DNA from: Psammoneis japonica
Lineage: Eukaryota
Direction of reading: 5' to 3'
Assembly (NCBI GenBank): GCA_008632985.1
Contig: QPGO01000032.1
Span: forward strand, 59,330-123,329
Length of the DNA stretch: 64,000 nt
Positions 696 through 54,311 of the stretch are shown piece after piece (positions within the stretch are counted from its first letter, which is position 1; each line of letters starts with the position of its first letter). The position numbers and the translations under genes were made by a program. A model generated the notes under the pieces. That model saw nothing but the letters and a program-made list of their open reading frames with translations, made no database searches and was not told the origin of the DNA.

Positions 696-1196
696 GAAAG
701 TGACTGATGCTGCGCCGCTCGCTGATGGCGAGAACCGCGAAACAAAACGGAAGGCGTCCGTCGATTGGGTGCAACAGCCCTACGGTAGCATGCACTGTGT
801 GTGTTGTGTAGGATGCATGCCAGACACATGTTCTTGCTGACGTCGTACAGTGTGTTTCAACGAATTCTACTGTACAAATCCTACTTATTATGTAACCGTG
901 GCTGGATGTGAGGAACTGCTGGATAGCCATTGTATTGTATAAGTACATGAATAAACTGAATAAATACACGAAGGCCAAAAAATGGGGCGCGGCGCGCGCA
1001 GACATCAGACGCTCTCCAAACCAAAATTTCGGAATTTTGGAATGACCACAACGCATCAGGGGTCAGGGGGCAAACCAAAGCTACCGGTACAGTACGTCAA
1101 CATCGATTCGTGATTTCACCGGTGAGACGAATATGCATTGCTGTTCTTTGTAACGCTGTCTTACTTTCCCCTAAACACCTTGGGAGATAAACTAGT

Positions 1197-4151: not shown

Positions 4152-4164
4152 GCTAGAATAAAGA

Positions 4165-6288: not shown

Positions 6289-7846
6289 TCTCGAGTCAAG
6301 ATGTTGGTGCGGTCTAGCTTGATGTGCCGGTTCCTAAGCGTACGCTGTTGCTTTCGCCACCGCCATTGTCATCTTGTACTGTATGTGCAGAGAGCTTCAG
6401 CCGCAGAGCGGAGCGAGCGCGCCAGCGACGCGAGGAGATCACAACCATTTTTGTCTGTCTGCTACCCGAGAATTCGCTCTCTACATGTAGCCTCCCGCGA
6501 GCGCGAAAGGACTATCCTGACCGTTGTACGGTGTTTTGTGCAGTTTTTGTCCGCACTTTCTGTTAAGGGGGGTCATCCCCGCGTTTATCCTAGAATTACC
6601 GTTGCATTATTTGAATAAGATTTTTTATAGTGCTTATTTTTGAATGCAAGAATTGTTCATGGTCACACCCGATCACGCACGAAAACGAGAACCATCCCAA
6701 CACCGCGATCGAAGCACGACGATGATGATGACAATCATCGACATTTCTCAAAAACGCAGCGTGCCGTCTGTCAACTTTTCATGCACACACAATCTTTGAC
6801 ACATGACAAACATAAAACAAATGAGAATTGGCAGATGGACCACCTCTGTCACAGACTTGTGGCTTGTTCTGTTTTCACCACGGTGAAGCACGGTGAAACT
6901 CAGGAAAAATCATGCAAAACACGAGCCATTCGACCAAATTCAAGCTAAAAAAAAGTGGCGACCAACCCACCTTGAGTGGAGAGAGTTGTCATTCCTGCGC
7001 AGACAGTGGATCACTCTCAGGTTGTGAGCCTCACTTTTGCTCATCGCGAGGAGGGGCCATGCCACATCGCGAAACAACAAAACACCTTCAGCACGTTGTT
7101 GTTGACACCGGCGGTGAGCGTTTGCAATGCACCCACTTCCGCTCTGTTGACGCGATCAATGCATCCATCATTGTTCATCTTGTCCAACGTTTTGCATGTG
7201 GCATGGCATGCACTCTGCTTGCGCGGCATTCCTGCGTGAAGTGCACCGTCAAAGATCCAAGATCAACTGCCCCGCGCACAGTTTGATTTCTTTGAGCGCA
7301 ATGAAACATCACAATGGCCCCTGCGAATGGCACCCGTTTGAAGACAGCATCATTCTGGTGAGCAAAATTGTCATCAATGCGGGCCACTCTGTCCCAGGCA
7401 CTGGCTCAAGATGGCAATTTGCCAATTGCAACCACAACCAACACCCCACACGGACCCTCAGCTGTCTCCACTCCGTCCGCCAAGATTGCTGCTGCACGTG
7501 ATGCAACTCGCCCCATCACTGAGTTGCGTCCAACAGTCTCAGTTTGGTTTTTTGCCATGTTTTTGAAAACAAAGCTCCCCGGGATCACCACTTTTTATCC
7601 TGTTTTTCTGCGGAAAGGGTGAATTCCCGGGGAATTGCCATGAATTGCCCTTGCTCACATGTGTGCTGAACACACGAATGAAAAATTGTGCATTGGCAAT
7701 TCTCCTTGCTTCCCCTCTTGTGCATTTCCATGTGTGCCATGTGCCGGCAAACGTGCGGAACCACACATCAGACGCGCAAATTGAAAATCAGCAATCGACC
7801 AACCGCGACAAAAATGGGCAACACACCATGGCGCACTCGCATCCCA

Positions 7847-8091
7847 TGACAGGATTTGAACAAGATTTTAGTTTGTCACACACAATCATGTGTGCTTTTA
7901 GTTCCATGCGCGATGCGCGATGCAGTTTGCTTTCAAGCCACATGGCTCACAAGAATGACAACAGAAGCACCGACATCACGACACCAGTCTTTCGGCTCCT
8001 GCAACGGTCTCTGCACAGAGACTCATCCACCATTTAGACAGCAGCAAGGAGTTGTTGTTTTCTTCCCCCCCGTCATCTTCATTTCCTGACA
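7847..8091 (+). repeat. 5' LTR of the copia element
   Basis: TGACAGGATTTGAA...TTCATTTCCTGACA, aligns without gaps to 14828-15072. Confidence 0.96.
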
Positions 8092-9295
8092 GATTGACAG
8101 TCTCGGCTCAACATTCACCCATTTGAGCCGCCATCATCGTCATCGAGAAAATCGACGACGCGCACCGTTGGCGGTGGAAGCATGTGCCTGCCTTCTTCAC
8201 TGCTGCATGTTGGATTGGATGTGTGCGTTTGGATTTGTCCAATGCATGCAATCGCTGGACACATGCCATTAAACGGATGTTCATTTGGTCAGGAATTTCC
8301 GAATTCTCTTGGGCTTCTGAGATTCTGGATTCCTTGCAGCGGACACTGCTCCCATCGACAGACAGACCGACACATCTGCTCGCGTTCACACGCACACAAT
8401 GCTGTCACCCAACTCTGGTCCTGCTGCAAGCACACCAAGTCCATTGCCACCTGTCCACACCGGATTGCTGGTCTTCTGCAGTTCTGCAAGGTCCACGAGG
8501 ACAACTGTGGGAGGAAGTGATTCATGAATCTAGTCTACGTTGGGGCGAGTGTGCTTTTCCCACATTTGTTCGTCCCTCCACAGCGCCAATTCTGGCCGGC
8601 CTGATCGGGTCATCCAACCAACATGAAATGAGAAAGGTTCAGGGGTCTTGTCCACCTCCAGTTGGCTTGTCAGCAGGGGTTTTTAACCCGTGTTACTCCG
8701 CTCTCAAGCAACCCAAAGCGTCACTGGCTGTGGGTTCAGACGTGCTGGCACAACTCTGTGGACCAGACAGGAAGCTTGGCAATTGACTACAAACAGGACA
8801 GCACAACCCGGCGGCTTCTGACTTGCAAGACAGTTCAAGTTTTCAAGTCAAGTTTCAAGTCAGGTGTTTCAAGTTATGATGGGCTCCAATCCTGGGTGGG
8901 ACTCCGTGTGACATTGGGCCCGCAGAATTCCACGTACGAGCTCCACAGTAAATTTGTTGAGCAATGAAAACATCAATGATCACCAACAGAAAAAGAGGCA
9001 ATTTTACGAACGTATCTCCTCCTTCACACTTTTAGCACATGAATGACAGTTTGCATGGGTGTGTTCTGCAGACATCAAAGAATGTGCCCAGCGCATTTTC
9101 ATTGTCACAAATGTTGAAAATAGAAAGCCTTTGGCTTTGCAAAGTGACATGCGGCGAGATCCAAAAAACTGTTGATGTCACAGTTCAGTGCTACGAGGTC
9201 CCACCTGCTGGAGCTGGAGCGCGTCTTATTTCAAGTCCACTCTCCTGCTCCAGTCTGCTCTCCAACTCTAGTCCCAGCACCCAATCAGTTGCACC

Positions 9296-12200
9296 ATGGT
9301 TCTCACCAGACAGCAACAAACCAATGGCTTTGAGCACATCTTAGGCACTGTTCTGAATCAAGCCACAGACAGTCCATTGCACTCTGCCCTCAGCATTGAT
9401 GGCACTGATTTGTGCCAGGATCTCTTCACGTTTACTCCACTGCAGCTTGATGCCCTGGTTTACAATGACGGCACCAATCAAATGCCTTTGCCCCATGGCT
9501 GCAAAGCACAAATCGCTGCTTTGATTGGTTTGCACACAGTTGAAGCACGCGGCAGTGCTGATGTTAGCAACAACCCTCACTTTGTTTGCACATGAAGAGT
9601 TCACCAACTGTCATCTCAGCCCCAAGTGCGTGGCATCCCTCTCCATGGGTATGGCGCCTTCTGCTCCTGCTCCTGGTTTGTTGCCTCCAAAAACACGTGA
9701 CCCCATGCGTGACTTCAAGCGAGGCATCAAACGTGGCCCACTCACCTTCGCGACTCTCAAGTCAGACAAGCAGTGGCACACGTGGCACACCTCCATCGTC
9801 GCACAGGCCCGCTCTCAGGACGTCGATCGCATCCTCGACTCGATGTGCAAGCCCAACACAGCTAAGGACAAGGCCTTGTTTGCCAAACAACAGAAGCACA
9901 TGTTCGCTGCATTGGAACATGTCTTGCAAAATGACAAGGGCAAGGCACTCATTCGTGAACATGTTGGCTCCTCTGATGCCCAAGCGGTGTATCGCAAACT
10001 TTCCAAGCATGCCCTTGCATCCACTCGTGCATCCCTGGAGTCCTCGAGCCTTCTCACACACCTCACCTCTACTCGCCTTGGTGATGGCACTTGGAAAGGC
10101 TCCACCCATGCCTTCACACTCAACTGGCAGGACCAGCTTTGCAAGTGCAAAGCTCTTGTCCCCAACACGGATCATTTTTCGGATGGTCAGAAACGCGTCA
10201 TGCTCAAGAATGCCATTCACCCTGTTGAAGAACTTTGTTCGGTAAAGAATCAAGCCGATCAGTTTCGCGCGCAAAACGGCACGGGTCTTTCTTGTGAGCA
10301 GCATTGTGGGCTCCTGCTTTCTGCAGCGGCACAGTGTGACAGCATGTTCAACCCCAAGACAGCCCCACGCGCTCCCCGCCGTGCCATCTGTGAACATGAC
10401 CCAGCTCCTGACAACCCTGATGACGACGTATGCCATGACATTGACAGTGATGTTGATGTCCTTCAGGCTTGTGCTGCTCAGACTCGCGGCAACTCCCTCA
10501 CCAGGGAACAATGGCATCGCATCCCGCGGGACCACCAGTGCATCTGGGACACCTTGCCTCAGTCCACCAAGGCCATCATCCTTGGTTCACACACTGCCCA
10601 TGCCGGCAATTATCACGACTTGACAGCAGTCAACCTCCACGACCTCCGTCTTGGCAGCGATGGTGACGTGAACTTGTCAGCCAATGCTCATGACCTCATG
10701 TCCGCCCGTGAACCACCTGACGTTGCTGCCGACCCAGCCGATGCTAACCCCATCCTAGCTCACCACACCAAGCACAAGCCTTTGCCACCTGGTGATCTGC
10801 AACATCTTCTCATGCTCAAAAGGCCCCCTTCGGCCCGCTCTGGCAAGAAACCGCCCAGATCTTCATCCTCACGCCATGCCGAAACTGACATTGAGATCAA
10901 CAGCCACACTTGCCATTGCGTTGACAATCACAATGTCATCTGCTCTGCCTTGACTCATGCATCAACTCGCAAGGGTGCTCTCATGGATCGTGGCGCAAAT
11001 GGTGGCATCGTTGGTGATGATGTTTGTGTCATCAATCGCACTGGTCGTCAGGTTGACGTACAAGGCATTGACAACCACCAGCTTGTCGACACTCCCATTG
11101 TCACTGCAGGTGGCGTCATTCACACGCAGCGCAGACCAGTCATCGCCAACCTTCACCAGCGCGCTTGCACTGGCAAGGGCAAGACCATCCATTCTTGTGG
11201 CCAACTTGAGTGGCACAAACATGACGTGAACGACAGGTCCATCAAGGTGCCCAATGGTCTGCAACGCATCACCACCATTGATGGCCACATCATTCCCATC
11301 GACATCAAGGGTGGCCTTCCGTACATTGCCACACAACCACACACCGACGCTGAATGGGACATGCTCCCTCATGTCGTCCTTGCTGGCGATGACACCTGGG
11401 ACCTGTCTGTCCTTGATCGCCAGTTCACTGATGATGAAACATGGTACGACGCCGCATCCGACCTCCAAGACGACCCAACCACCAACCTGTTTGATGAGTT
11501 TGGCAACTGTCGTCACCGTCACATTGTCAACAATGCCATGCTCACTGATTCTGTCCTGGATGACCACCTCCTTCCAACGTCCGACTTCTTCCATGAATGC
11601 CATGAGCATCCTGTTTTGGCTTCCTCCCGAAGGACACTGTTTGCCGCACCTTTGACTGCACAACACTGTGTGCCCGCATGCCTGCCAGCACACACCTGAA
11701 AAAGGCACACAAGTCTCCCAACCCGGCTCTCAATGTCCACCAGCATGATGAACCCATCGCCACCGACACGGTGTGCTCTGACACACCCACCATCGACTCC
11801 GGCTGCGTCAGTGCTCAGCTCTTTGTCGGCACGGAATCTCTTGTCACCAACGTCTGCGGCACCAAGACTGACAAAGAAATTGTCAACACGCTTGAAGACA
11901 ACATCCGCAATCATGGTGCCCCCTCCAAGCTCATCAGCGACCATGCTCAGGTTGAGATCAGCAACAAGGTCCTTGGCATCCTTTGTGCCCTCTTCATCTC
12001 TAGTTGGCAAAGTGAGCCTCGCCACCAGCACCAGAACTTTGCTGAGCGCCGCTGCCAGACTGTGAAAACCATGGCCAACACAATCATGGATCGCTTTGGA
12101 TCTCCCGCGTGCACCTTGCTCCTTGCCCTCATGTGCACATGCTTTGTGCTTAACCACACTGCATCTGCCAAGCTACATTGGCATGCCCTCACTGAGGTGC

Positions 12201-14753
12201 TGTCCAGTTCCACCCCCGACATCAGCCCGCTCCTTCGCTTTCAATGGTGGGAACCCGTGTGCTGCACCACCTGGATGATTCCGACTGGCCGTCCGAATCT
12301 CGCGAACTTTGTGGTTGCTTCGTTGGCATTGCCGAACACATTGGTCATCAAATGACGTTCAAGATTCTCTCTGAAGACACTCAGAAAATTGTTCATTGTT
12401 CCAATGTGCGCTCCGCTCGCGACCCATCCACTCTGAACCTCCGTCTTGACCCTCCTGACAAAGGATCTGCTGAACCCGTTGTTAATCCCGACGCGACTCT
12501 CCGGATTCAATTGCTTCACCAGATGGGGAGATGATCAGGATGCTCAAAATGCCAGTCTTCAACCCCAAGGATGTCATTGGATGCACCTTCCTCATGAAAC
12601 CGCAAGAGGATGGACAACATCACAGATCCCGCATTGTCAAAGCTGTTGAAGACCATGATTGGGAAATTGGAGACAACCCTGAACTGGTCAAGTTCATTTG
12701 CTCTGTCAACAACAACGAACACGAGGAAGTTCTTGCCTGCAATGACATCATGCACCACATCGAGCAAGAAGATGAGGATTCTGCTCTCTGGAAGTTCCGA
12801 TGCATTGTCTCTCATGAAGGACCATTGAGACCTCATGACCCATCTTGGAAGGGCTCAAGCTACAACGTCATGCTTGAATGGGAGAACAGGGAGACAACAT
12901 CTGAACCCCTTGCCATCATTGCCAAGGATGATCCCGTCACCTGCACCATTTGGGCACGCGAACATGGCTTGCTCAAGATCAAAGGCTGGAAACATTTCTG
13001 GACCACAGCACGATGCCAGAAGAAGTTATTCAGCATGGCCAACCAAGCCAAGCTGCGCTCCTTTTGCACCGCACCACGATGCAAGCACGGATTTGAAGTG
13101 CCCCGGGACTACAAGCACGCCTTGGCTCTCAATGAATGCAACGGCAACCGCAAGTGGGGAGATGCAACGGACCTCGAGATGACTCAGCTTGATGAACACG
13201 AGGTCTTCCACGACTGTGGACACTACAAGGACTCCAGTGCTCCACCAGGACACAAGAAGATCAGGGTGCACCTCGTCCATGACGTCAAACACAACAGATG
13301 GCACAAAGCACGCCTCGTTGCTGATGGGCACCTCACGGATGTACCCATTGACAGTGTCTGCTCTGGGGCAGTGTCCCTCCGTGGCCTGCGAATGATGATT
13401 TTCCTGGCAGAACTCAACGACCTAGAGACCTGGGCGACCAACATTGGGAATGCCCATGTTGAAGCCACCACTGAGGAGAAGCTGTACATTGTGGCAGGCC
13501 CTGAATTTGGCAAGTTTGAAGGACACATCCTTGTCATCCACAAGGCTTTGTACGGACTCCACAGCTCCAGCCTCAGGTGGCATGAACGCTTTGCCAATTG
13601 CTTGCATGCTGAGGACTTCTTCCCGTGCCGTGCCAAACCCGACATCTGGTTGCGCAGGAATGGTGATCACTGTGAACATGTGGCAGCATGTGTGGATGAC
13701 CTGGCCTTCACCATGAAGGACCCACAGGCTTTTGCGGACACTCTCATGGAGAAGCACAAGTTCAAGCTCAAAGGCACTGGACCATTGGAGTTCCACCTTG
13801 GTTGCGCCTTCACCCGTGACCTGGACAGCACCCTGTGTCTTGCTCCTTGCAAGTGCATTGAGCACATGGTTGACAACTGTGCACGCCTCTTTGGGGAGAA
13901 ACCTCATTCTGATGTTCTCTCGCCTCTTGACAAGGGAGACCACACTGAGCTTGACACCTCCGAACTGCTTGAGCCAGATGGCATCCACCAATTTCAATCC
14001 TTAATTGGATCCCTGCAATGGGCTGCATCCCTTGGATGCATTGACATCACTGTGGCCGTCATGTCCTTGTCTAGCTTCCATGCAGCCCCTCGCCAAGGTC
14101 ACTTAGACCGCGCCAAGCGTGTCTGCGGATTCCTCTCCAAGATGCAACATGGTGCCCTCCGAGTGCGCACTGAGGAGCCCGACTGTTCGGATGTTCCCAA
14201 GCCCATGTATGACTGGTCCCAGTCTGTGTGCGGGGAGGTAGAAGAACTGCTCCCACAAGATGCACCTGAGCCACTTGGCAAGTTCGTCACTGTGACCCGT
14301 TGCGTTGACGCAAACTTGCTCCATTGCATGCTCACAGGACGCTCAGTCACAGGCATCCTGCATTTCCTCAACAAGTTTCCAGTTGATTGGTTCTCCAAGA
14401 AACAAGCAAAAGTCGAGATTGCCACGTGTGGATCTGAGTTTGTTGCCGGGACCTGCGTTGAGCAGATCATTGATCTGCACATCACTTTGCATCATCACCT
14501 TGGTGTCCTCATTCGTGAAACCTGTTGCATGTTCGGGGACAACAAGTCAGTTGTGGACAGTGCCACCATCCCGCACTCTAAGTTACACAAGCAACACACT
14601 GCCCTCTCATTCCACCATGTACATGAGGCAATTGCTTCCGGTTTCCTCGAGTTTCACTTCATCGAAGGCTCCCACAAGAACCCAGCTGACATTCTCAGCA
14701 AGCACTGGGGTTGCTCCCAGGTGTGGACCCTCCTTCATCCCCCAATGTTTTGA
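9296..14753 (+). pseudogene. copia gag-pol polyprotein, frameshifted and hypermutated
   Basis: Gag start MVLTRQQQTNGFEHILGTVL; protease LMDRGANGG; integrase TDTVCSDTP, LISDHAQVE, SEPRHQHQNFAERR; RT KARLVADGH, KALYGL, CVDDL; RNase H CVDAN, ATCGSEF, GDNKSVV, NPADILSKHWG. Split over ORFs starting 9296, 9525, 11678, 12244 and 12531. Confidence 0.95.
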
Positions 14754-14827
14754 AACTTTGATCCTGAGGCTTCCTGCCAATCTGACTTTGAATCTGTCGC
14801 TGTTGACCCCTCAAGCAAACTGGGGAG

Positions 14828-15072
14828 TGACAGGATTTGAACAAGATTTTAGTTTGTCACACTCAATTGTGTGTGCTTTTACTTCTGCGCGCGACACGCG
14901 ATGTAGTTTGCTTTCGAGCCACATGGCTCACAAGAACAATGACAGCAGTGCTGACATCATGACACCAGTCTTTCGGCTCCTGTGACGGTCTCTGCATGGA
15001 GACTCATCTGCTGTTTAGACAGCAGCAAGGAGTCATTGTTTTCTTCCACCCAGTCATCTTCATTTCCTGACA
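14828..15072 (+). repeat. 3' LTR of the copia element
   Basis: Preceded by a purine tract and followed by the TCCCA target duplication. Confidence 0.96.
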
Positions 15073-15229
15073 TCCCATTTGTGACAGCTTTTGTCAAGCA
15101 ACAATGACACCAGTCAATCACATGATTAACATTGCGATCTACAGTGTAAAAGATAAAATGAAATGGAAGTGTGATGGATGATGTTGAGCAGAAAACTGGT
15201 GCATTGATTGTCGCACTTGTTCTTTTGTC

Positions 15230-15660
15230 ATGCGGTCACAAATGCAAGCCATGCGGCATTTGCAGCAAAGCCCAAGGCACAAGCAGAACTGCACATGGCT
15301 GACAAAAATGTGGCAGATTGAACAGTCATGTTCACTCTTCCAATTGACACATCTCATGGGCAGAATGAAGCGAGTCGTTTGGAATCACTGTGTTGCCGTG
15401 CAGCTGCAAATGCAAACCATGAGGCATCCAGAACGAAGGCCAAGGCAAAAGCAGAGCCTCACAAGGCTGACAAAAATGTGGTGGATTGCGTGGTCATGCT
15501 TGTTCTTTCCTTTGACCTGTCTCACATGTGCAGAATGCAGCGGCATTCCCTCTTGTGTCGCATGGTCACAAATGCAAACCACAAGGGCTCTAGAGCAAAG
15601 GACAAGGCAAAAACAGAACCTCACACAAGCAACGTTAATGTGGCTGATTTGGTGGTGAAG
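15230..15660. repeat. Degenerate tandem repeat, unit about 165 bp, about 2.7 copies
   Basis: caaatgcaa(g/a)cc anchors at about 15239, 15407 and 15569, each followed by similar caaggca(a/c)aa(g/a)caga...aatgtgg sequence. Confidence 0.75.
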
Positions 15661-17394
15661 TTTCTTCTTTCCTTGCTCCACCACAAGGGGCCGCTTTGTG
15701 TCGATGTGTCGATGCATTGCACAGTGCGTGCTTGCTGGCTGCAGGGCTGCGCTGCACAGTCACAAGGATAAAAGCACACCCGCCTTACTGTGATTGCCGT
15801 ACATTGCCGCATTCCATTCATTTTTGTTCCCCTCCCCTGAGCCCTTTCAGGCGTTCCTTCCCGCAAACTCACCCTCATTTCCTGGGATTCCCCCAAAAGG
15901 GTGAGGTGACTCCCCGTTGCCCTGGCCATTTTGGGGGATCCCCAAATGGGCAAAACCAAGCCAACAGAGACAAGACGTGTTCCAGTCCCAGGTGACACAC
16001 AAAACGACAATCGATTTCAAACATAAATTGTGCATCTCTTGTGCGTGCATCATTTGAACACAAAATGCTCAGACGGATGGGCTTCCACAGGTGTGCCAGA
16101 GCATGGACACACAAACAGTTTTTTTGTTGGCACTCACCTCCTCATGGGACATGCATCATAAATTCCTTCTTCTGCAGACTCAATGCTGATTGTACGACAG
16201 TGCATTGGATGCTGATTTTTGGTTGCAGGTGGAACACCTGCCAGAAGGTCTTGCAGAAAAATTGTTTTATTTGACATTCAAATGATGGCAACAATTTTGC
16301 CGAAAATCATCCATTGTGTTGCGACTCATTTGTCGCAATGAAAAACATGAACAGCACAAAAACAATGACATCGCAACACTGATGCAAGTCTTGTTAGTGC
16401 TGCAAAACATTCAATTTTGTGTGAATCTATGCTTTTGGTGGTGAAAGCTTGTTTGCAAGTGAGAGACCATGCAAAAATTGCAAATGTCGTTTTTGTGCAC
16501 GATTTGGGTCACGTGTGGCTGGAACACGTCACAACTCCATTTGCTGCCACCACCAACATTTGCCTGGAACCCACCCATGTTCCAGCCTCCAATGCCTCTG
16601 CTGCTCCCAAGAAGGCTGCTGCCACCCCATTGTGCTGCAGATGTTTGTGGGCCCAGAATTTCTCATGCTGAGTTGATGCCCCCACCCATGCTGCCACTCC
16701 GTTGGTCGCCACTCCACAAGCCTGACCCATTGGCTGCTTTTAGGATTGCTTTGGGAAAGCTTGAAAAGCCGGTTGAGTGCAAGAGTGCTGGTGTTGCCAT
16801 TGACCGAGGAGCCACAGTGTGTGTCATGCTCAAGGTGCAAGCTGCTGTCTGTGTGCCACAAGCAAATGGCTTCTCAGCATGCCACGAACGACGCAAATGG
16901 ATCTGTTGACTTTTCTGGGAAGTCAATTGTCTTAGATTCTGCTGGCCTCAACCCTGCCAATGTTGCAAGCCTCCCATTGTAGGGGGATTGCACCACTTGG
17001 AATCATTGTCAGTTTTGTTGCCTTGGCCACTCCCTGGCAACTCACTGCCACCAAATTGGCGCTGCTCTGGTCACCACCTGATTTCCTCTTGGATTGGACA
17101 AGGTCTGGACAGCTTCCCGACAGTGCACTCTGGCACCATCCTGGCAGACCTCCTGGTTTGCTGTCCCACTCACACTCTGAGCAATCTCCCGGTCTGTCAA
17201 TTGTTGGCAATTCATTTGATTGGTTTAACGAGTGGATGATTGCACGGCGTTGGGTGCAGAAACGGATTCATTGTTTCAATTTTTGCTGTCTGTCCATCTG
17301 GCAGTCATGACTCTCATCACTTCTCTTTTGCACTGGAAGATCTTCAATCCTGTTTTTACCAGGCTTTTGATTCTCCTTGTGTGTGGGGGGGGGG

Positions 17395-17440
17395 TGTCAG
17401 TGGAGAGAGTCATTCCTGCACAGACAGTGGATCACTCACT
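17395..17440 (+). repeat. Dispersed repeat, possibly the start of an LTR of a second element; homologous to 6975-7018
   Basis: agtggagagagt(tgt)cattcctgc(g/a)cagacagtggatcactc occurs at both sites. The 17395 copy starts with TG directly after a G-run resembling a polypurine tract. Confidence 0.5.
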
Positions 17441-19874
17441 TTCACCTTTTGCCCCCGACGCACCAAAAACAACAAAGCGCTGCATGGTGCATCAGGTTGG
17501 AGGCCTGCAACTCTGCACCCATGGGGATTTGATTTTCAACACGTTGCACAGTTGCTGTTTGTGGTCATGATTGCTTGATGCACTCCAGCCCCAACAAGTC
17601 TCATGCTCTCCATCGTGAGTCCATGTGTCAACCACTGTCATGTGTGCTGCACACACCGGAAGTCTCCTCACAGACTCTTGGGGAAGCAAGGCAGATGATG
17701 TGCCAGGGTCACATGCAGGCAATTTGTTGCCATGTCCTTTGGTGGTGTGCTTCAAAAAGTTTGCAGAGAGACGAATTCTCCATGGTGGCAAAAGTTTTTT
17801 GTGCACACAGGTTCATGCAGGGATTCCAGAGGCATTGCAGCAAACTGTCCATCCGACTCATGCAAGAGTCAAAATGTGTTGACCTTTGGGTGTGAGCAAG
17901 TGCATGCGCACAAATGGTTGATGCACAGACTTGCAATGGAGAGTGGCCCTGCCGGAGGCATGTGAGCAGCAACAGCAGCAGCTGTCATTTTCAGGATCAC
18001 CTCACAGACCCCAAGAACCACATGTCAGTGGAAAGCTCTCACAGAGCTGAGCATGTGTCAGCAAAGAATGTGTTGTTTGAAGTGTGTGCAACTCAAATGT
18101 GCACTGGCCCAAAATCAAGCCACACTCCAAGTGAAACCTTTCCTTGTCATGGCAACAGTCATGTTGACTGCATGTTTCCCGTGCTTTTCACTTGTTGAAA
18201 ACACATGTCCACATGTGTGCACAATTGAACAATGCGTCAATTGGGCATTTGATTTTTCACTCCTCTCCTCACTCATTTGTCTCCTCTCTTGGCCAAAGCA
18301 ACATGAGTGAAGGAGTCAGCAACCCACTTTTTCCCTTTCTTGCCTCCTGTGCATCAGGATGCACAAAGACATCATCATGCTTGCACTTGCCAAGCTTTTT
18401 TGGTCTTCACCCATCCTTCTTTGCCCTTGTCTCCTCTGTGCTCTCCACGCTGTGCTTCCCACTCCTGTTCCCAAGCCCCTTGTTCTCCCAAATTGTCTTC
18501 ATGAACTGCCACACCTTCAATGTGCCAAAGACAATGCAGTCACTCAGGATTCCTCTGCCTTGAAGAACCCTCAGGTGAACCTCTGTTCAACGCTTCAGCG
18601 TGTCCGCTCTCTAAACTTCATTGAGTCATCATTGCTCTGGCAGGTCCAATGTGACGTGATGAGCCATTGTGGTCTCTGCTGCTTTTCATGAAAATCCAAA
18701 TTTTGGAGGGGAGGAGTTTGCAAAAGACACAATTTTTGGCAAGCTTTGATCATGGAGTCGCACACAACAAATGGAGCATTGCTTGCACACCCCCTGCTGA
18801 ATTTGAAGGAAACATCAAATGACCATGATGGCAAGTCACCGTGAAACTCCTGTTGCTCTCATGCTTGTTGCAGCTGACCCAACCAGAGCAGCATGTGGCA
18901 ATGCACACAAGATGCGTTCCAGCCCCAGGTGGGAGCTTGTGGTGCTGACGTGTGACACAAATGATTTTTGTCATCCGTCGCATGTTTTGCGTGTGCATTT
19001 GTGCATGTGACATTCCAAAAAAATTGTCCAGACTTGCTGTTTTGCAAAGTCCCAGATGCTTCGCACAACGAATTTGTGGAAACAACAACACACCAGTTGC
19101 ATTCTTCAGACAGTTGCATTCTTCAATGTCTGAAGAATGCAACTGGCTGAGCAAAAAATGATGCACTTCAATCATGGACGAGTTTGTGCGTTCGCAAAAT
19201 TGCCTCATTTTCTGTTGGCGATCATTGACATTTTCATCACCTGATGATTTTGCTGCGGAGCTCGCATGCAGAATTCTGTCGGGCCCAATGTTGCACGGAT
19301 TCTCACCTGCATCTGGAATGTGTCACAACAAGCAAGCATCACATCAGAGCAGCTGCAGCCACAAAAACACATGACAAAAGCCCACTTCCAATGGTGTGTG
19401 CAAGTTTTTCTCTGTTGTCATTTTTGCCAGATCAGCACGCTGCTGATTCAACGCTGTTGTGGCAGCAAGGACATTGTTTGGCGAGCCACCCACACCCACC
19501 CACACTGCAGTGGCACACAAACACACAGGTGAAAAGCTGGTGTGGGGCATGAGGCTGGCACAACAAGCACAGTGTTTCACCCCATCAGCAAGTCTGCAGC
19601 TCTGCAAGCGGTGGGGGTGGGTGGAGCAACACTTGTGTGAGCATTTTGCTGTTTTGCAGCTGGGCGTCTGAGCGACATTTTCCTGGTGCTGACCTGTGTG
19701 CACAAAGCTGCCCCAGCCACTGCAGAATTTTGCCGGCATTGCAACAGAGAATTTCCCGAATGTCCAATTTTGAGCCACAAATTTCAGGAAATTTGTGCAT
19801 CTGACAATCTCGGAAAACTTTGGCAGCTTGTCGCGCAATGTGTCAGCAAAGAACAATGAACAAGAACCACGGTG

Positions 19875-22800
19875 TCATGCATCTGCACTCTTCGTTGGTG
19901 CATTTTGTGTGTGCATGTGAGCACTGCATTTCTGTGACCAAATCCTTTCCTTCTTACCCTTTGAGCAAGAATTGGACATTTGTGGGGTCGGCAGTTGTGG
20001 TGTTGGGGAAACAGGTGGCGGAGGGAGCGCGCGGAGCGCGCCGGGAGAGGGAGAGAAAAAGGGTTGGCCAAGGGTGCGGACGGACGGTCGGGAGGAGGAG
20101 TTGGTGACGGAGGGATGGCGGAGGAGGAAAGCTTGACATGCAGAGAGATGGTTGGAGAGAGCAAAGCCAAAGTCAAGGCTGAGGGTTTGGGAAGCCCAAA
20201 GTGGGGGTGTGGCAGCATGGCAGGAGGAGCCGAAGTGGGCGGGGGAAAGTTGTTTCCAGGCCGCGTTAGATTGGGTGAGGAGGTTGGAAGGAGCTAAAAG
20301 GGAGTTGGTGAAGGCAGAGAAGGATGCTTGAGAGTTAGAGAAAGAGGATGGATGGGACCAGGGCGGTTTGGGGGGGAGGGGGGGGACGGAGGAGGAGGCA
20401 GTGGTGGAGGCGCCAAAAAAGAAAAGATGGAAGTGGTGTCCGATGCCTCCTGGGTGATCGAAGGCAAAAGGGAGGAGGAAGAGGCCTGCTTGGTTGATGG
20501 TGTTGATGATGTCAGAACCGTGGGCGGAGGATGTAGAGCGGCCGAGGAGCTTGTCCCGAGTGCTGCTGAGGTGAGCCTTGTCAAGTGGGTTTTCAGGGAT
20601 GGGCAAACCAGGTGCAGGAGGCGGGGGAGCGGGCGGCACGGTGATGTCAATTGCTGTGGGTTGATGGGTGGATGGGGCGTCTGGTGGTGTGGAGCCGGGG
20701 GTGAGTTGGACGCCAACGTCGGTGGGGTGTTTTAGAGGGTGGTCGGGTGGGAGTCCGGCAGGGTCAACGTAGACTTGTTGGCGGGATCGGCAGAGGCCGC
20801 ATGGAGGACCAAGGGTCTTGATGATTGCACAGACCGTGTCGCGGATGTGGTTGGACAGGGGGCCTTTGTGCATTTTGGAGCAAGCAAAGGCGTGATCGCC
20901 GTGTGGGTCGGGGCGGGCGTGACCGCATGGGCAGTTGTGTTGGGAGAGGTTGGGTGGGATGATGGGGAGACGGAGCTTGCGCAAGAGGAGGATCGTGAAA
21001 AGATGGGGCGGAAGGCGATTGGAGGGTGGGATGCGGGACAGGGAGTGAAGGCATGGGCTTGTGAGTTGCGACAGCAGGGATGGGAGTGTCGGTTGGATGG
21101 AAGGATCGGCGAGGATTAAGGGGAGGGTGTGGTGTGTGTGATGGTGCAGGTGGAGACGCTGTGAGAGACCGCGCAGGTTGTGGTGTTCGACAGCATGCGA
21201 AAGGGAGGTAAAAGAGGGGGAGTCGAGCTTGAGAAGGGTGGGAGCACAGTGGCGGAAGATTTGGTAGAGGGAGAGGGTGGAGCGGGGGTTGGACCATGAA
21301 CCGAGAGCGGAAGAGCGGCTTGAGGGAAGGTGGAAGATGGCGCCACCGGCCAGTGGGATGCCATGTTTGGTGCAGCGGATGGAGCGGAGGAGGGAGGTGA
21401 TGAGGGCAGGGATGGCGACGGCGGAGATGTCGCGACATCCAATGCCGCCCAAAGAGACGGGCAGGGTGGCAATGAGTTTGGAGGCAGATGGAAGGGGGTC
21501 TGTGCATTGGGTGAGGCAGGTGAGGAACCGCAGGGAGTGGCCAATGATTTTGTCGATGAAGGGGGATGCCCACTGAAAAGGAGGTGGAAAGTCGTCGGAG
21601 GGTAAAAGGTTGTAGTGTGCGTCCGCAGATGGCAGGTGGGTGATGGAAGGGAGTGAGCACTTGCGGAAGAGGGTGCTCTGTGTTTGTTTGTCGGTGAGCC
21701 GGACGGTGAGGCGATGAAGGTTGGTGGCGAAGGAAATGGCCTTGTTGCGGAGGAAATCGAGGGCGAAAGCGGGTGAGCCGATGGGCCGACCGAGGAAGCG
21801 AGTGCCGGTGGTGATTTCGGGTGTGATGTGGGGATCGTTGTGAGGGTTGAGGAAGGCTAGGGCCTCGGACAGTGCAGCAGCGTCGGAGGGTGGAAGGCGG
21901 TTGATGGGAGAGGAGCCGGTGATGGAGGTGAGAATTTGGGTCTTGGAGGGGTTGAGCTTGATGCCGAATTGGGGACCGGAGGTAGAAAGGCGCTTGAGGA
22001 ACCAGGGGAGCTGGGAGAAGGGAAGGAAGATGTGGGTGTCATCGACATGAGAAGAGGCAGCGGACTTGGAGCGGGGAGGGAGTCGACGATGTAGGTCATC
22101 ATTGATGGGTTGGAATGCACGAGCCAAAACAAGGCAGGAGAAGGCAGGGCTGAGGGGGCAGCCTTGAGCAAATCCTTCGGGCTGAGAGAAGGAGGACCAT
22201 TGTAAGCGGTGGTCACGGTACCAGCAAGTGTTGGGGTTTTGGCAGAGCAGGTCGAAGAAAGGGATGAGGGGGTGGCATTCGTCAGAGTTGTCGAGGGTGT
22301 CGCGACAAGCATCACGGGAGCATTCGTTGAAACAATTTGATGAGTCGAGGAGGAGGAGGGCCTTGGTTGGAGTGGAGTCTGGGTCAAAGAATCGCTCAAT
22401 GTTGGCATGGGTGGTGTCGACTAGGTGGTCGAGACCGCCTTTGACGCCGACTCCGAATTGGCCGGAGTGGAGGAGGTTGGCAGCGAAGGTGGCGGCAAAG
22501 AGGAACATGATGAGGGTGCCGACGATTCTGCGAAGGGCAGTTCCGACGCCGATGGGGCAAAGTTTGGAAAGGTTGGAGGAGTCTTTGTGGAGAGCGAGGA
22601 AGCAGTTGGAAGAAAAGGTGGGCTTGATGGATGCAGGGATGTCTGCTGCAAGAATGAGGTCGAGCAGATGTTTGAAGGTGAGTGGGCAGGGGTGTGAGGT
22701 GGAGGTTGGGGTGGAGCGGTGGTGGAGGGCGCAGGCCTTGAACAGGTTGGTGGAATCGGCAAAGGCGCCGGGAGCTTTGCCTGGTTTACATTTGGTGAGG

Positions 22801-23885
22801 GCTTTGCGGAGGTCGTCAGTGGTGAAGTGCAGGGGGGAGGAGGTAGAGCGGTGGTGTCTGGCGGATGGGGGGGAAGGAAGCGGTGGGTGTTTGCGGGGCG
22901 GGCAGAGTTGCTTGACAAGCTCCATGCGTTCGGGGGTGAGAGAGGCGACGGGGAGGGAGGAGGCAGCCCGGGCGCAGGCGGTGTGGAGGTTGTTGATGTT
23001 GTTGGCGGCAACTTGGGCGGAGTGGGTGTGGGATGTGTTGTCAAAGTCGGGAGATTCGTCGGATGTGTCGGGAGCAGGGATCGAATGGGATTGGTCGTAG
23101 AGGGCGCGGATGGAACCGTTGCGGAAGAGGAAGAGACGTTGAGTGATGGTGGTGGAAAGGGGGATGTTGGAGTGCTTGGGTCGAGGGTAGAGGATGAGGG
23201 ATTCAAAGAGGAAGAGGAGCTTGAAAAAAGGGTCGGAGGCGGTTTGCCAAGGAGGGGGTGGGTCGTCGTCGGTGTCGAAGGGCTCAGAGGAGTCGACAGT
23301 CCATTGGACGAGATGATGGAGGGTGAGGAGGACTTGGAGGCGGGAGGAAGGGGGGAGTTTGTGCCAGAGGGAGGCGCGGAAGGGTGGGGGCGACAGGGGT
23401 GGCGAGTGGAGCCATTGAAGGGAGGTTGTCCAAGCAGTGAGCTCTTGACGTGGGCAGGAGGATGCAATGAGCTGAATGTTGGTAGTTGTGCAGGGGTGAA
23501 AATGGATGTTAGAAATGTGGGTGTGTGAATGTGCATCACGGAGGCATGTCTTGGTGGTTCGTTGGCAATGACGGCATGGATGTAGGTTGTGGAGCTCGAA
23601 GAAGGAGTCGGGGATGGTTTGAAGGCTGCGGTGCTTGTGTGTGGTAGAGAGATGTGTGCGCAAGAGCTTGGGTAATTGAAGCGGAGGAGCATTGGGCGGG
23701 AGGGAGAAGGAGCAGCCCTCAAAGGGGCAGGAGCAGTTGGCAACCCCCAGCGGGGTACGGGTGCCGATGGGTTCCATTGCTGGAGGGTGGGGCGGAGCGT
23801 GTTGGGGTCTTGATTGGCATTGGTGGCCTGTTGGGAGAGTGTGGACCACTCGGCGAGGTGTGTTGGAGCAAAGGTGTGGACCCAT
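19875..23885 (-). pseudogene. CRE-type reverse transcriptase / RLE polyprotein with catalytic YVDD changed to HVDD
   Basis: C2H2-like fingers (CPFEGC...HLSTTH); RT motifs PIGVGTALRR, QFGVG, LDSSNCFNECSR, GFAQGCPLSP, HVDD (22038-22049), GIKLNPSKT, FLGRPIG, LPVSLGGIG; CPCG...DPHGDHAFAC knuckle; PTDV...AIDITV endonuclease-like motif. Confidence 0.9.
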
Positions 23886-24452
23886 TGGTCAAAGACGTCG
23901 AGAAGCTCGAGGTCGCGTTGAGAGCAGTCGAAGTCCATGTCGGACGGGTCGGGGTGCGGTGCATGTTCCGCAGGCGGGGGTGGGGTGTTGTGTGCCAAGG
24001 CGGGAGTGTTGGTGGCGGGGGTGTCGGGATCCATGGTGGCAGTGTCGGAGGAGCACGTGGAGCCGTCGAGGTCGGGAGGGTGTGAGCGCTTCTTGCGGTG
24101 TTGGGAGAGGGGTGTGGGGGTGCTGACGCGTGTCGTGGTGGGTGGGGATGGCAGTGTGGGTTGCCAGGAAGCTTCGAGGAAAGAGAGGGCTGTTTCGGAA
24201 AGGGTGTCTCGAGAAGGTTGGGAGGTGGCGTGGGCAAAGGATGTGGATGTTTGGGCAGGAGAGGGAGGCGGCCGTCGGGAAGGGAGGTCCTTGAGGAGGT
24301 GTCTGGGGATGTTGGGGCAGAGGTGAAGGGTGGCGTCGGTGACATCCACGATGAACGGGGTGGCGAAAAAAAGGAGCTTGTGTCGGATGGGGGTGTCACT
24401 GTGGGAGAAAAAAATGGGGATGACACCAAAAAGGTTGGGGGTGGTGAGAAGC

Positions 24453-26540
24453 TCATCGTAGTCTAGTTGGAGGGCATGGAAATGTTGAGTCGGCTCGTGA
24501 TGATGATGAAGCTGTCGGCTTGGCGTTTGTTGATGGCTTGCAGGCGTGTGGCGATGGGGAGGATGTCAGGGGAAGAAGGGAAGGGCACTGCCGAAAGAGA
24601 AAGGCCGAGGACATGCATGATCGGAGGCGGTGAGTTGGGAGGGTTGACAACAGATGGAAGAGAGGTCCATGTCTCAGGCGTAGAAGTGGTGAGGAAGTGG
24701 ACGTCAGACTGAGGGGTCTTGGCGGTTTGGGCGGAGAAACTTGGGAAACGAGAGGGGCGGACGCCGACGTGATCGAGGAAGGTGCTGTGTTCAGAGAAGA
24801 GAGAAAGGGTGGGGTCTGAGGGGTTGGCAGGTGAGAGAGATTTGACGTGAGCGTGCAGTTGTTGGAGGAGAAATTCGCAGGTGCGTCGAGATTGACCGCA
24901 GGTTTTGGGGTTGATGCCGGCAAGAATGCCGCGGGCTTGTTCGGTGAAGGAGTTGCAAGCAGGGATGAGGAAGGCAGCGCAGCAAGTCCAGGGGTTGGGA
25001 GATGCGGGGGTGTCTTTGGCATCCGAAGGAAGGAAGTCGGGAGAGGCAGAGGAGGCGGAGTGGTGCTTGAATTGTGTGGGAACAAAGCAAAGGACTTGGT
25101 CACGGAAAGGGAGGAACTCAAAGGTGTCATGGGAGGGAATGGGAACAAAAGTGAGCTTGAAGCAGGAGGCCCATTGATTGTGATGGGGGCGGGAGCGGCG
25201 CTTGGTTTCGGAGAAGGCAATGTCAGCAATGTCGAAGAGAAGACTGGGTTCGCGTGTGGCGTGTGTTCGGAGGGTGGTTTGGACGATAGAGCGGATGCTG
25301 TCAACGTGATGGCGGGTTCGGGCTTGTCGGCAGGGTCGGATGGGTGTGGGAATTGGAGAAGGAGCTTGGTGGTGGTCGGGGGTGGTGTGGGATTGACGGG
25401 GTCAGTGGAGGCATCGGGTTGTGTGTTGGTGTCAGAAGGATCAGGAGGTGCAGCGGCGGGAGGGGGGGCAGCGGCAGTGGTGGAAATGGAAGAGGAGTCA
25501 AGGGACGGAGGATGGGAAGGGGAGGTTGCTGTGTGGACAGTTGGGGGTGGAGGCTGGGTTGGAGTTTTGGGCGGGGACGTGGGTGGAGGGTTGGGATCAC
25601 GTTGCGGGGAGGTGGGGGTCAGAAGCAAGGGTTGAGACATTTGGGAGGTTTGGGAGTCCTGGACACTTTCTTGGAGGGAGGGCCAGTTGGATTGGTCGTG
25701 GAGGGAGGACATGGCGGAACGTAGAAGGGAGCGAAAGGTGGAGTCGAAGTCGAAGGCGGGATCGGAGGTAGAGTCGGAGACTGGGGCGGGATTGGAGTCG
25801 GAGGCGTGGGCAGGAAGGTGCAGCGCAGGTTTGCCGTGGGGCGCAGGTGTGGCGTGTTCCAAGTCAAGAGTGGAGGCGGGGTTAGAGTCATCAGTGTGTT
25901 GCACAGATTTTCCGTGTGTCGCAGGAAAAGTGAGATGTTCAGGGTTGAAAATGGAGGCGGGAGCGGAGGTGGAGTCAGGGTCAGGGTCGTCGATGTTGAA
26001 GGCGAGAGTGGAAACAGAATCGTCAATGTGTTGCGTAGATTTCCCATGTGTCGCAGGAAAGTCGGGGTGTTTGAGGTTGAAGGCGAGAGCGGAAACGGGG
26101 CCAGAAGTGTCGGTGCATTGCGGAGATGTCTCGTGTGTCGCAGGAAAATCGGGGTGTTCAGGGTCGAAGGTGGAGGCGGCAGCAAGGTCAGAGGCAGAAG
26201 TGAGAAAAGGATGGAGGTTGTAGATGTAGCGCGCAGGCATTTTATGTGTCGAAAGGAAGTTGTTGTGTGTTGCAGGAGAGGAGAAGGGGTGAGCAGACGT
26301 GACGGGGAGGGCAGTTGGGGAGGACATGTGGTGTCGTGACTGAGGCGAAACTTGGTGATGGGGGGCCATTGAGGGTGTCAATGTGGAAGTTATGGGGGGC
26401 ACAAGGGAGGGCGGGAGAAGAGAGTGGGGAGACAAGGCAAGTGGTCGGAGCACGACTGATGGTGCGGGGGTGATCGGGAGGCTGTCAGGGGTGTCAGAAA
26501 GGGGTGATGGAATGTGATGGGGGGCCATTGAGGGTGTCAA
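24453..26540 (-). pseudogene. Pro/Ser/Thr-rich upstream ORF of the CRE element (probably frameshifted)
   Basis: 695-aa low-complexity ORF with three FPATH(G/E) repeats, same strand and upstream of the RT ORF. Confidence 0.5.
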
Positions 26541-26700
26541 AGATGGAAGTCATGGGGGGCATGAGGGAGGGCAGGAGAAGAGAGTGGGGAGACAAGGCAA
26601 GTGGTCGGAGCACGACTGATGGTGCGGGGGCAATCGGGAGGCTGTCAGGGGTGTCAGAAAGGGGTGATGGAATGGGGGTGTCAGAAAGGGGTGATGGAAT
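26355..26700. repeat. About 159-bp tandem duplication plus a short extra unit in the CRE 5' region
   Basis: Units start near 26355 and 26514 and are near-identical; differences include TA/CA, CA/TG, CG/CA and TG/CA. Confidence 0.9.
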
Positions 26701-27149
26701 GGGGCTGCAGTGCGATGGAGTGGGGCTGTGATGTTGCTTGTGGAGGGTCGGAAAGAGGAAGGATGGGAGGGAGGTGGTGGTGAAGGGGAGGGGAGGGGCA
26801 ACAGTGGGGAAGGGGATGTGGGAGCAGCGCACGGGTTGAGGACGATGAGGAAAATGGCGAAAACCGAAACGACGCGAGAGAGGCACCGCAGAGCGAAAGG
26901 CCCAAAGAGCGGTGGTGGGTCGGGAGGCCATTCCGGAAGGTGTAGCGAAGCGCTGCTTGACTGGGGAGTGAACCCCGTCGGCGTTGTCAACAAGGCTTTC
27001 ATGTCGACAGAATTTTTCGGCGACGTGCATGCATGCCGCAACGGTGGCGTTTCTAATGTCCAAAAAATTTGCGCGCGAAAATCTCCAACGGAAAACTCTG
27101 ACAAAAAAATCGCATGCATCTGCAACATTTTTTAGGCTATGCGTGTGCG

Positions 27150-35041: not shown

Positions 35042-35105
35042 TTGAGAGCACTGTTTTGGAGTGCACATTTGCCAAAAGCCATGCTGGGGACCATTCTTTG
35101 AAATT

Positions 35106-54063: not shown

Positions 54064-54311
54064 CCATCAACTGCTCTGTCATCCGTCTCGGTTGACAATC
54101 CAGCCTGTGTGGGGGAGACAATGGCATGAGCAGTGCACGTGCTCCAATGGTGGATAGACCCGTGAAGGAGCAGCGCACATGCTCTTTTGTTTAAAGACGC
54201 ACTGTTGTGGCCGACACGCAGCTAGCTGCGGGGGACAAGAAGGACATGCGAGCTGGGCATCTGCTCTCATTTCATGTTCCTCTTTCTCTTTATGAAGTGG
54301 AACTGTGCAGA

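What the first reader, a model, noticed from the sequence alone, without database searches (positions are those of the whole stretch)
9296..23885. Elements are killed by systematic tyrosine loss at catalytic motifs rather than by stop codons
Copia: expected YVAVYVDDL reads HVAACVDDL (cat gtg gca gca tgt gtg gat gac, CVDD at 13689-13700); SVYSG reads SVCSG; GNAY reads GNAH; YVDAN reads CVDAN; ATYGSEF reads ATCGSEF; HWGYSQ reads HWGCSQ; DTVYSD reads DTVCSD. CRE: YVDD reads HVDD (22038-22049). Tyr codons (TAY) always contain TpA, so every Tyr is a target, including the RT YxDD. This fixes the direction as TA>TG/CA, independently of CpG decay, which is also visible (ATD reads ATN, GLR reads GLH).
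Basis: partly seen in the sequence, partly recalled or inferred. Interest (0 to 1): 0.75.

Follow-up and report, generated by a model that had tools for sequence, protein, structure and literature searches.

The report
TpA-erasing hypermutation strips transposon tyrosines
In this diatom, jumping genes have had most TA steps rewritten to TG or CA after they landed, which turns their tyrosines into cysteine or histidine; the same odd mutation pattern was reported in 2026 in one unrelated alga and its enzyme is still unknown.

Summary
The motifs read as stated. Natural Copia relatives keep Tyr there (118 of 120 at YxDD), so the direction is TA>TG/CA. Tyr loss is the protein-level shadow of a DNA-level, both-strand process acting after insertion: 683 of 874 TA site-copies became TG or CA, AA and GA barely changed, TAY is hit harder than TAR, and strands are not coordinated. 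The two LTRs differ by 11 TG~CA swaps. Short-read contigs agree with the assembly. 'Killed by Tyr loss rather than stops' is only partly right: the process cannot create stops, but 33 of 35 copies carry a stop or frame change, this copy lost a near-invariant Asp by CpG decay, and the CRE position is variable. Added here: TpA loss is uncoupled from CpG decay, and same-age copies on four TE-dense contigs and the rDNA are largely spared. Closest known: TpA hypermutation in Bigelowiella natans (bioRxiv 2026). This scan noted the process many times on other DNA of this genome. Most likely chemistry: a DNA adenine deaminase; enzyme not identified.

The parts
7847..8091 (+). 5' LTR of a Ty1/copia element (starts TG, ends CA; preceded by TCCCA at 7842-7846)
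   Evidence: 245-nt direct repeat, 87% identical to 14828-15072; boundaries and 5-bp duplication
9296..11696 (+). gag/protease-side coding region of the Copia, in more than one frame; 4 Tyr in the 724-aa open frame 9525-11696
   Evidence: domain labels from position and recall, no Pfam hit
11606..12352 (+). integrase-region open frame (DTVCSD at 11765-11782); 0 Tyr in 249 aa
   Evidence: 3 of 3 Tyr-conserved columns read Cys; 'integrase' from its place upstream of RT
12486..14750 (+). RT-RNase H open frame, 755 aa with no internal stop, 6 Tyr
   Evidence: RVT_2 E 2.4e-18; 2 of 20 conserved Tyr kept
13434..13457 (+). RT motif ATNIGNAH: Asp>Asn (CpG class) and Tyr>His (TpA class)
   Evidence: relatives D 119/120, Y 120/120
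13677..13703 (+). RT motif HVAACVDDL with YxDD reading CVDD (13689-13700); three TpA-class changes
   Evidence: relatives Y 114/120, V 101/120, Y 118/120
14828..15072 (+). 3' LTR, followed by TCCCA at 15073-15077
15073..19870 (.). older decayed repeat DNA with TA o/e 0.0-0.2 and CG o/e 0.1-0.5, read the same in short-read contigs
   Evidence: (17349-18289: 1 other letter in 941; 18451-18939: 1 in 489; 19280-20008: 0 other letters, 1 gap)
19878..23888 (-). non-LTR retrotransposon ORF (CRE-like), 1337 aa, 6 Tyr; HVDD at 22038-22049
   Evidence: RVT_1 E 3.7e-7; 37 relatives; genome copies
35109..37611 (+). second, more decayed copy of the CRE-like element (motif HING, 6 stops)
7001..27000 (.). 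continuous TpA-depleted block holding both elements, with sharp edges against host genes
   Evidence: 500-bp bins
1191..6333 (.). control: two long host-type ORFs with normal TA (0.55, 0.54) and CG (0.98, 0.94)
47978..49693 (-). control and host marker: CPSF30-like gene, TA 0.42, CG 1.00; the named top relatives are almost all diatoms

Best explanation
A host mutator acts on chromosomal DNA of silenced transposon blocks after insertion and converts A:T to G:C almost only at TpA, on either strand, one site at a time, fastest when the A is followed by a pyrimidine (TAY). Once either A of a TpA has changed the target is gone, so each site ends as TG or CA. Every Tyr codon is TAY, so Tyr becomes Cys or His wholesale; TAA and TAG triplets are erased and no stop can be made. 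CpG decay runs in parallel as a separate, slower process and supplies most Arg/Asp/Glu changes and many TGA stops. Shown: spectrum, direction, both strands, post-insertion timing, context rule, uncoupling from CpG decay, regional differences. Inferred: adenine deamination to inosine by a TadA/ADAT-type (or OTT_1508/OLD-type) enzyme aimed by chromatin or small RNA, and a role in defence. About 0.9 for the process as described, about 0.55 for the deaminase chemistry.
For: Fate of TA shared by two TA-rich copies in 20 other copies: 176 kept, 398 TG, 285 CA, 15 other of 874; CG kept 1275 of 2015. A>G per site: TA 0.39, AA 0.015, GA 0.008, CA 0.037 (0.014 with stricter polarisation); transversions 0.004. 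TA of TA-poor copies are a subset of TA of TA-rich copies (28/34, 27/29, 22/23). LTR pair: 11 TG~CA swaps, null mean 0.6, maximum 6 in 20000 shuffles. The same Tyr column is C in some copies and H in others. Context over 13 alignments, 57 kb: lost ATAT 1.00, ATAC 0.99, GTAC 0.87, CTAG 0.61, TTAA 0.52. Adjacent sites share an outcome 328 of 663 times, null 334 +/- 10. TadA reads U-A-C-G (PMC10586758, passages); OLD and Tad2/3 favour U at -1 (PMC12754623, passages). An ADAT2 gene is present. Same spectrum measured de novo in Bigelowiella natans.
Against: No enzyme was tied to the process. The ADAT2 is single-copy and its Asn at the TadA-108 position is shared with the three best-matching PDB ADAT2/Tad2 chains, so it says nothing special; the TadA-like gene has Asp there. 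The only OTT_1508-like match is a decayed 80-aa fragment inside a TpA-erased block, with no credible relative in the representatives search. Lack of strand runs does not favour a processive single-strand deaminase. Sequence cannot tell A>G from T>C chemistry. Defence is not shown: copies that keep most TpA also carry stops or frame changes. Polarisation rests on TA-rich copies, not on an observed ancestor.
Confidence: 0.6

Rival explanations
1. The modified base is the T: thymine at TpA in silenced repeats is oxidised (5hmU/5fU, as with dinoflagellate TET/JBP marks on transposons) and mispairs with G, giving T>C at R-T-A.
For: 5hmU marks transposons in dinoflagellates and preferentially replaces T in TA and TC (PMC11572971, passages). 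T>C at TpA and A>G at TpA are one double-strand event; no strand coordination is expected.
Against: No Tet_JBP match in the genome (the controls were blank too, so weak). TC steps are not mutated: GA>GG 0.006-0.013. That 5hmU is strongly mutagenic is not established (recalled).
Confidence: 0.15
2. Biased repair or an error-prone polymerase: a Vsr/TDG-like T:G repair that outcompetes mismatch repair at TpA, or Pol-eta-like gap filling in methylated chromatin, fixes G opposite T.
For: Explains isolated, uncoordinated events and a rate roughly 25-fold or more above other A contexts; AAY is slightly above AAR (35/1463 against 9/2105), a WA-like trace.
Against: TA:AA is about 26:1 and transversions at TA are about 1% or less, unlike the broad WA spectrum of Pol eta (recalled). 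TG>CG is not raised (CA>CG 0.014). TpA loss does not track CpG decay (rho 0.05), as repair triggered by 5mC deamination would.
Confidence: 0.15
3. RNA-level hyperediting (ADAR-like) of retroelement transcripts, fixed by reverse transcription before insertion.
For: Two A_deamin-family genes are present; U at -1 is favoured by such enzymes.
Against: Both strands are hit within single copies (398 TG, 285 CA); the two LTRs of one insertion took opposite outcomes at 11 sites; tandem units and repeated DNMT-bearing stretches show the same swaps.
Confidence: 0.03
4. Assembly or base-calling artefact from a modified base read as G or C.
For: Random TG-or-CA outcomes are what a two-strand misread would give.
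Against: Short-read contigs at single-copy depth match TA-erased stretches (1 difference in 941, 1 in 489, 0 in about 730; one study, possibly the source sample); two near-identical contigs share outcomes (1 TG~CA swap in 7198 columns).
Confidence: 0.02
5. Selection or ordinary codon bias removed TpA and Tyr, or TA-rich copies gained TA by RIP-like CpA>TpA.
For: TpA is mildly under-represented in host genes too (0.4-0.55).
Against: Changes destroy near-invariant residues; 77 related Copia loci from other organisms have TA o/e 0.36-1.02, median 0.69, even the 16 with CG below 0.35 (0.41-0.74; the search patterns favour intact elements); CA>TA is 0.015-0.020, near background.
Confidence: 0.02

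Closest known systems
TpA hypermutation of integrated NCLDV and virophage DNA in Bigelowiella natans (Mettrop et al., bioRxiv 10.64898/2026.01.13.699255; parts 1-3 of 5 of the main text and passages read, supplements closed)
   Same: A:T>G:C transitions confined to TpA, both strands (TpG and CpA), in silent foreign DNA; TpA-depleted coding sequences there are enriched for RT and DDE domains; uneven activity; ADAT2 proposed but untested.
   Different: Here a diatom (stramenopile, not rhizarian); LTR and non-LTR retroelements and other repeats, near saturation (91 of 128 window bins below 0.25); a 3'-pyrimidine rule, no strand runs, uncoupling from CpG decay and spared TE-dense contigs, none of which appears in the parts I read; no de novo rate measured here.
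Repeat-induced point mutation (RIP; RID/DNMT4-related)
   Same: Post-insertion, dinucleotide-specific transition hypermutation of repeats with sharp edges; diatom DNMT4 may be related to RID (bioRxiv 10.1101/2021.06.11.447926, passages).
   Different: Opposite direction (RIP makes TpA from CpA and makes stops; this destroys TpA and removes TAA/TAG); copies 90-93% identical to hit copies are largely spared, so similarity alone does not decide.
CpG decay by 5mC deamination in diatom transposons
   Same: Present in the same elements (37% of CG lost) and ends in the same TG/CA products.
   Different: Slower, and uncorrelated with TpA loss across copies; other organisms' Copia with strong CpG decay keep TpA.
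TadA/ADAT2-3 and fungal OLD (OTT_1508-like) adenosine deaminases
   Same: Preference for U/T 5' of the edited A; TadA also for C 3'.
   Different: Natural substrates are tRNA or mRNA; none is shown to mutate transposon DNA.
CoDi Ty1/copia elements of diatoms (PMC2806351, passages)
   Same: RVT_2, TG...CA LTRs, 5-bp target duplication, diatom host.
   Different: LTR pairs there are 94-100% identical; here 87%, mostly through TG~CA swaps. CoDi group not assigned.

Membership tests
Bigelowiella-type TpA hypermutation | A:T>G:C transitions almost only at TpA, giving TpG and CpA | tested here: met
   683 of 698 lost TA became TG or CA; AA 0.015, GA 0.008
Bigelowiella-type TpA hypermutation | confined to foreign or silent integrated DNA, host genes spared | tested here: met
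   500-bp bins; six host-type ORFs TA 0.41-0.55; 6 of 8 rDNA matches examined, 115-116 TA each. Integrated viruses not examined.
Bigelowiella-type TpA hypermutation | acts on chromosomal DNA after integration | tested here: met
   LTR pair, 11 swaps against null 0.6; independent outcomes per copy, median sharing 0.61
Bigelowiella-type TpA hypermutation | about 1000-fold de novo rate, on in only some lines | not testable with these tools
   needs mutation-accumulation lines; between near-identical contigs 4 of 56 TA and 20 of 282 CG sites differ, among 36 mismatches in 7198 columns, which hints at recent activity
Bigelowiella-type TpA hypermutation | same enzyme (ADAT2 proposed) | tested here: inconclusive
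   single ADAT2 with the usual Asn; no functional link
RIP | C>T at CpA, gain of TpA | tested here: not met
   CA>TA 0.015-0.020 against CC>TC 0.010-0.018
RIP | targeting by sequence similarity between copies | tested here: inconclusive
   copies 90-93% identical to hit copies keep most TA; rDNA spared; not a direct test
RIP | premeiotic timing, RID/DNMT4 dependence | not testable with these tools
   27 DNA_methylase matches found, not classified
Pol eta WA mutagenesis | both TA and AA hot, with transversions (recalled) | tested here: not met
   TA 0.32 against AA 0.012; transversions at TA about 1% or less
ADAR-type RNA hyperediting | A>G on one strand, acquired before insertion | tested here: not met
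Ty1/copia (CoDi) | RVT_2, LTRs TG...CA, 5-bp target duplication | tested here: met
Ty1/copia (CoDi) | placement in a named CoDi lineage by RT tree | not tested
   no named CoDi references at hand
CRE clade non-LTR | RT followed by a zinc-knuckle and restriction-like endonuclease; clade by tree | tested here: inconclusive

The most novel reading that the evidence does not exclude
A natural DNA adenine editor (ADAT2/3 with a cofactor, or an OTT_1508/OLD-type deaminase) serves as a genome defence shared by diatoms and chlorarachniophytes. It is aimed at transposon islands lying among genes by a signal other than CpG methylation or sequence similarity, is largely kept out of large TE-dense blocks and rDNA, and makes silencing permanent by removing Tyr codons.
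Probability: 0.3. Interest if true: 0.88.

Novelty: new variant of a known kind. Interest (0 to 1): 0.58.

Why it matters
It extends a mutation process reported once (two viral inserts, and TpA-poor coding sequences, in one rhizarian alga) to near-saturating rewriting of transposons in a culturable stramenopile lineage. It gives a fingerprint for the unknown enzyme (T-A-Y, clean A>G, isolated hits) and an internal control (same-age copies in hit and spared regions) that makes targeting testable. A natural DNA adenine deaminase working on chromosomes would be new biochemistry and of interest for base editing. In practice, LTR-based dating, repeat annotation and ORF calling fail in such genomes: divergence is inflated by TG~CA swaps, and loss of TAA/TAG leaves long open frames in dead elements.

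Tried and rejected
A first multiple alignment with flanks was too noisy (only 1 target passed the filter) and was replaced by pairwise projection. Strand coordination: none. TG>CG back-drive: the apparent 0.037-0.049 fell to 0.014 with stricter polarisation. Tet_JBP: no match, controls blank too. Alkyladenine glycosylase PF02245: no match, controls rang in 4 of 14; absence not shown. Deaminase survey: 9 PF00383 matches, read as dCMP deaminase, TadA-like, ADAT2, RibD-like and nucleoside/guanine-deaminase-like from motifs and recall, and two A_deamin genes without a double-stranded-RNA domain visible in the ORFs listed; none stood out. OTT_1508-like fragment: Pfam above cut-off and three Atlas clusters at 0.84-0.86, but the representatives search gave only one repetitive protein that I regard as chance. 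No RNA holder listed, so expression was not assessed. The window ORF 59537-63025 found no family. 6mA at ApT is the wrong context (bioRxiv 10.64898/2026.05.21.726589, passages). Literature searches listed no paper on this pattern in diatoms; only and one search listed the Bigelowiella preprint; most subscription journals are outside the library.
Full report
Observation. All quoted motifs are at the stated coordinates. The window belongs to a 91-Mb assembly of a diatom: the named top relatives of a host gene at 47978-49693 are almost all diatoms. The Copia spans LTRs at 7847-8091 and 14828-15072 with a TCCCA duplication; its RT-RNase H frame 12486-14750 matches RVT_2 and the minus-strand frame 19878-23888 matches RVT_1. 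TA o/e is about 0.0-0.3 across 7001-27000 and returns to gene-like values at sharp edges; 91 of 128 500-bp bins of the window are below 0.25.

Direction. I compared the Copia frame with the best 120 of 932 natural relatives. They keep Tyr at the seven quoted RT/RNase H columns in 118/119, 120/120, 114/120, 118/120, 98/120, 114/119 and 92/114 cases; the last column has His in 12, so it is the weakest. At 20 Tyr-conserved columns the window keeps 2, while Phe, Trp, His, Lys and Ser columns are fully kept. Over 30 genome copies these columns read C 237, Y 134, H 108, other 102, and the same column is C in some copies and H in others. At YxDD, 35 copies read H 19, Y 11, C 5, with DD kept in 33. 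For the CRE-like element the case is weaker: 37 relatives have Y in 17, otherwise I, F, V, T or W, never H; eight genome copies read YIDD twice, HIDD twice, HIND once, a stop once, and two are gapped at the first base.

The process. Using sites shared by two TA-rich copies as reference and 20 other family copies as targets (15 of 35 loci were left out as references, other TA-rich copies, or below 88.5% identity), TA was kept 176 times, became TG 398 and CA 285 times, and something else 15 times of 874; CG was kept 1275 of 2015. A>G per site was 0.39 after T, 0.015 after A, 0.008 after G and 0.037 after C; transversions 0.004. A stricter filter gave 0.32, 0.012, 0.006 and 0.014. In pairwise alignments the TA of TA-poor copies are nearly a subset of those in TA-rich copies (28 of 34, 27 of 29, 22 of 23). 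Context: TAC 0.57, TAT 0.43, TAG 0.22, TAA 0.23; over 13 alignments (57 kb) loss ran from ATAT 1.00 and ATAC 0.99 to CTAG 0.61 and TTAA 0.52, consistent with two independent targets per TpA, each favoured by a 3' pyrimidine. Neighbouring sites share an outcome no more than chance (328 of 663, null 334).

Timing and reality. The two LTRs, identical at insertion (established for LTR elements), differ at 32 of 245 positions; 22 of 27 transitions lie in 11 TG~CA swaps (null mean 0.6, maximum 6). Such swaps can come from TA or from CG, so they date the changes to after insertion but do not alone give the direction. Short-read contigs at single-copy depth reproduce TA-erased stretches almost letter for letter (one study, perhaps the source sample), and two near-identical contigs share outcomes, so this is fixed mutation, not misreading. 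Between those contigs 4 of 56 TA and 20 of 282 CG sites differ in the Copia part, among 36 mismatches in 7198 columns, a hint of recent activity on small numbers.

Targeting. Across 26 copies TA loss does not track CG loss (rho 0.05) or other divergence (rho -0.03); six TA-rich copies lost 13-39% of TA and 29-47% of CG, the 20 others 70-91% and 25-47%. The TA-rich state is regional: on C160, C196, C356 and C403 several repeat families keep TA, and the ORFs sampled there that have Pfam hits are TE domains but for one weak match (40 ORFs scanned in all, most without a hit). I chose these contigs because they held TA-rich copies, so this is not a random sample. Six of eight 18S matches were examined and are untouched. 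Related Copia loci of other organisms (77) have TA o/e 0.36-1.02, including 16 with strong CpG decay; the search favours intact elements. So CpG methylation and sequence similarity are each insufficient to explain targeting; position matters, as other notes of this scan also say (not independent evidence).

'Killed by Tyr loss rather than stops'. TA>TG/CA cannot create a stop codon and erases TAA and TAG (3.3 and 3.7 per kb in the Copia against 15.0 and 18.7 in genes), which explains the long open frames. But 27 of 35 copies have an in-frame stop (76 in all, 21 TGA at Arg columns; 12 in one copy may be misalignment) and 33 of 35 have a stop or frame change. The window copy has no stop in 1006 aligned residues but two frame changes, and Asn where 119 of 120 relatives have Asp, a CpG-class change at what I recall as the first catalytic Asp of RT. 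Tyr loss is probably disabling (Tyr>Ala/Ser nearly abolishes M-MuLV RT; PMC8640165, passages; Cys and His not covered), but it is one of several lesions and the order is unknown.

Mechanism. The clean A>G spectrum, the T at -1 and pyrimidine at +1 resemble TadA (U-A-C-G; PMC10586758, passages) and Tad2/3 or OLD (U at -1; PMC12754623, passages). I favour adenine deamination on DNA (about 0.55). The genome has one ADAT2 with the usual Asn, a TadA-like gene with Asp, two A_deamin genes and a decayed OTT_1508-like fragment (family signature from PMC3239186, passages), which the representatives search did not corroborate. None is linked to the process. Thymine oxidation (PMC11572971, passages; no Tet_JBP match, uninformative control) and biased repair or an error-prone polymerase remain open; RNA editing, artefact and selection are rejected above.

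Comparison and novelty. Earlier notes of this scan led me to Mettrop et al., bioRxiv 10.64898/2026.01.13.699255; I read parts 1-3 of 5 and passages, not its supplements, which may hold flanking contexts. It measures the same TpA>TpG/CpA spectrum de novo in viral inserts of Bigelowiella natans and finds RT and DDE domains among TpA-poor coding sequences. The diatom case works like it and meets its sequence-level features; a shared enzyme is untested. It is not RIP (opposite direction; bioRxiv 10.1101/2021.06.11.447926, passages, for the DNMT4 link; PMC2806351, passages, for CoDi). Searches listed no diatom report.

Verdict. Observation confirmed; interpretation partly supported; a new variant of a recently described, still enzyme-less process. 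Interest 0.58; 0.88 if a chromatin-aimed natural DNA adenine editor is shown (probability about 0.3).

Noticed in passing
G000 C160, C196, C356, C403 (L083-L089, L094-L102, L215-L224, L231): TE-dense contigs where TpA erasure is weak: among 1-kb bins with CG o/e 0.4-0.8, TA is below 0.15 in 0 of 56, 1 of 27 and 1 of 36, against 59 of 76 on large contigs. All Pfam hits of the ORFs sampled there but one weak match were TE domains. All 8 TA-rich Copia cores lie on contigs under 200 kb, against 7 of 27 TA-poor ones (Fisher p 0.0003; copies on one contig are not independent).
   Followed up: partly
L245:1946-2185 (G000:C92, about 43545-43785): Decayed OTT_1508-like deaminase fragment (GxxK before CxxC) inside a TpA-erased block; fungal members edit A after U in mRNA. 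Pfam E 2.5e-7, Atlas 0.84-0.86; no intact copy seen.
   Followed up: partly
L045-L047, L051, L054 (G000 C301, C297, C28): Several cytosine-methyltransferase matches lie in repeated, TA-erased stretches 91-95% alike, perhaps methyltransferase-carrying mobile elements; 27 matches in all.
   Followed up: partly
L123-L128: 18S rDNA matches on several contigs (8 in all, 6 examined), 99.7-99.9% alike, with normal TA and CG.
   Followed up: yes
window 50501-64000: TA-erased block that keeps much CG (mostly 0.5-0.9) with long unidentified ORFs of 869, 529, 428 and 1163 aa and a 281-bp tandem array whose units differ mostly by TG~CA swaps.
   Followed up: partly
window 7842/15074: Short-read contigs join across the Copia with a 5-letter overlap but differ at many letters, so they are probably another copy of the older repeat into which it inserted.
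   Followed up: no
L209:316-1791 (minus strand): A 491-aa open frame joins a nucleoside-deaminase-like domain to what looks like a 2OG-Fe(II) oxygenase (second domain recognised from memory).
   Followed up: no
L103-L105 against L106-L109 (G000 C430, C16): Two contigs 98-99% identical over about 20 kb, probably haplotypes, so the assembly holds some allelic duplication; a tandem repeat between their TE blocks has TA o/e near 1.
   Followed up: partly
window 29501-38500 and 44001-46500: Blocks that have lost both TA and CG almost completely (o/e mostly 0.0-0.2), probably older repeats.
   Followed up: no
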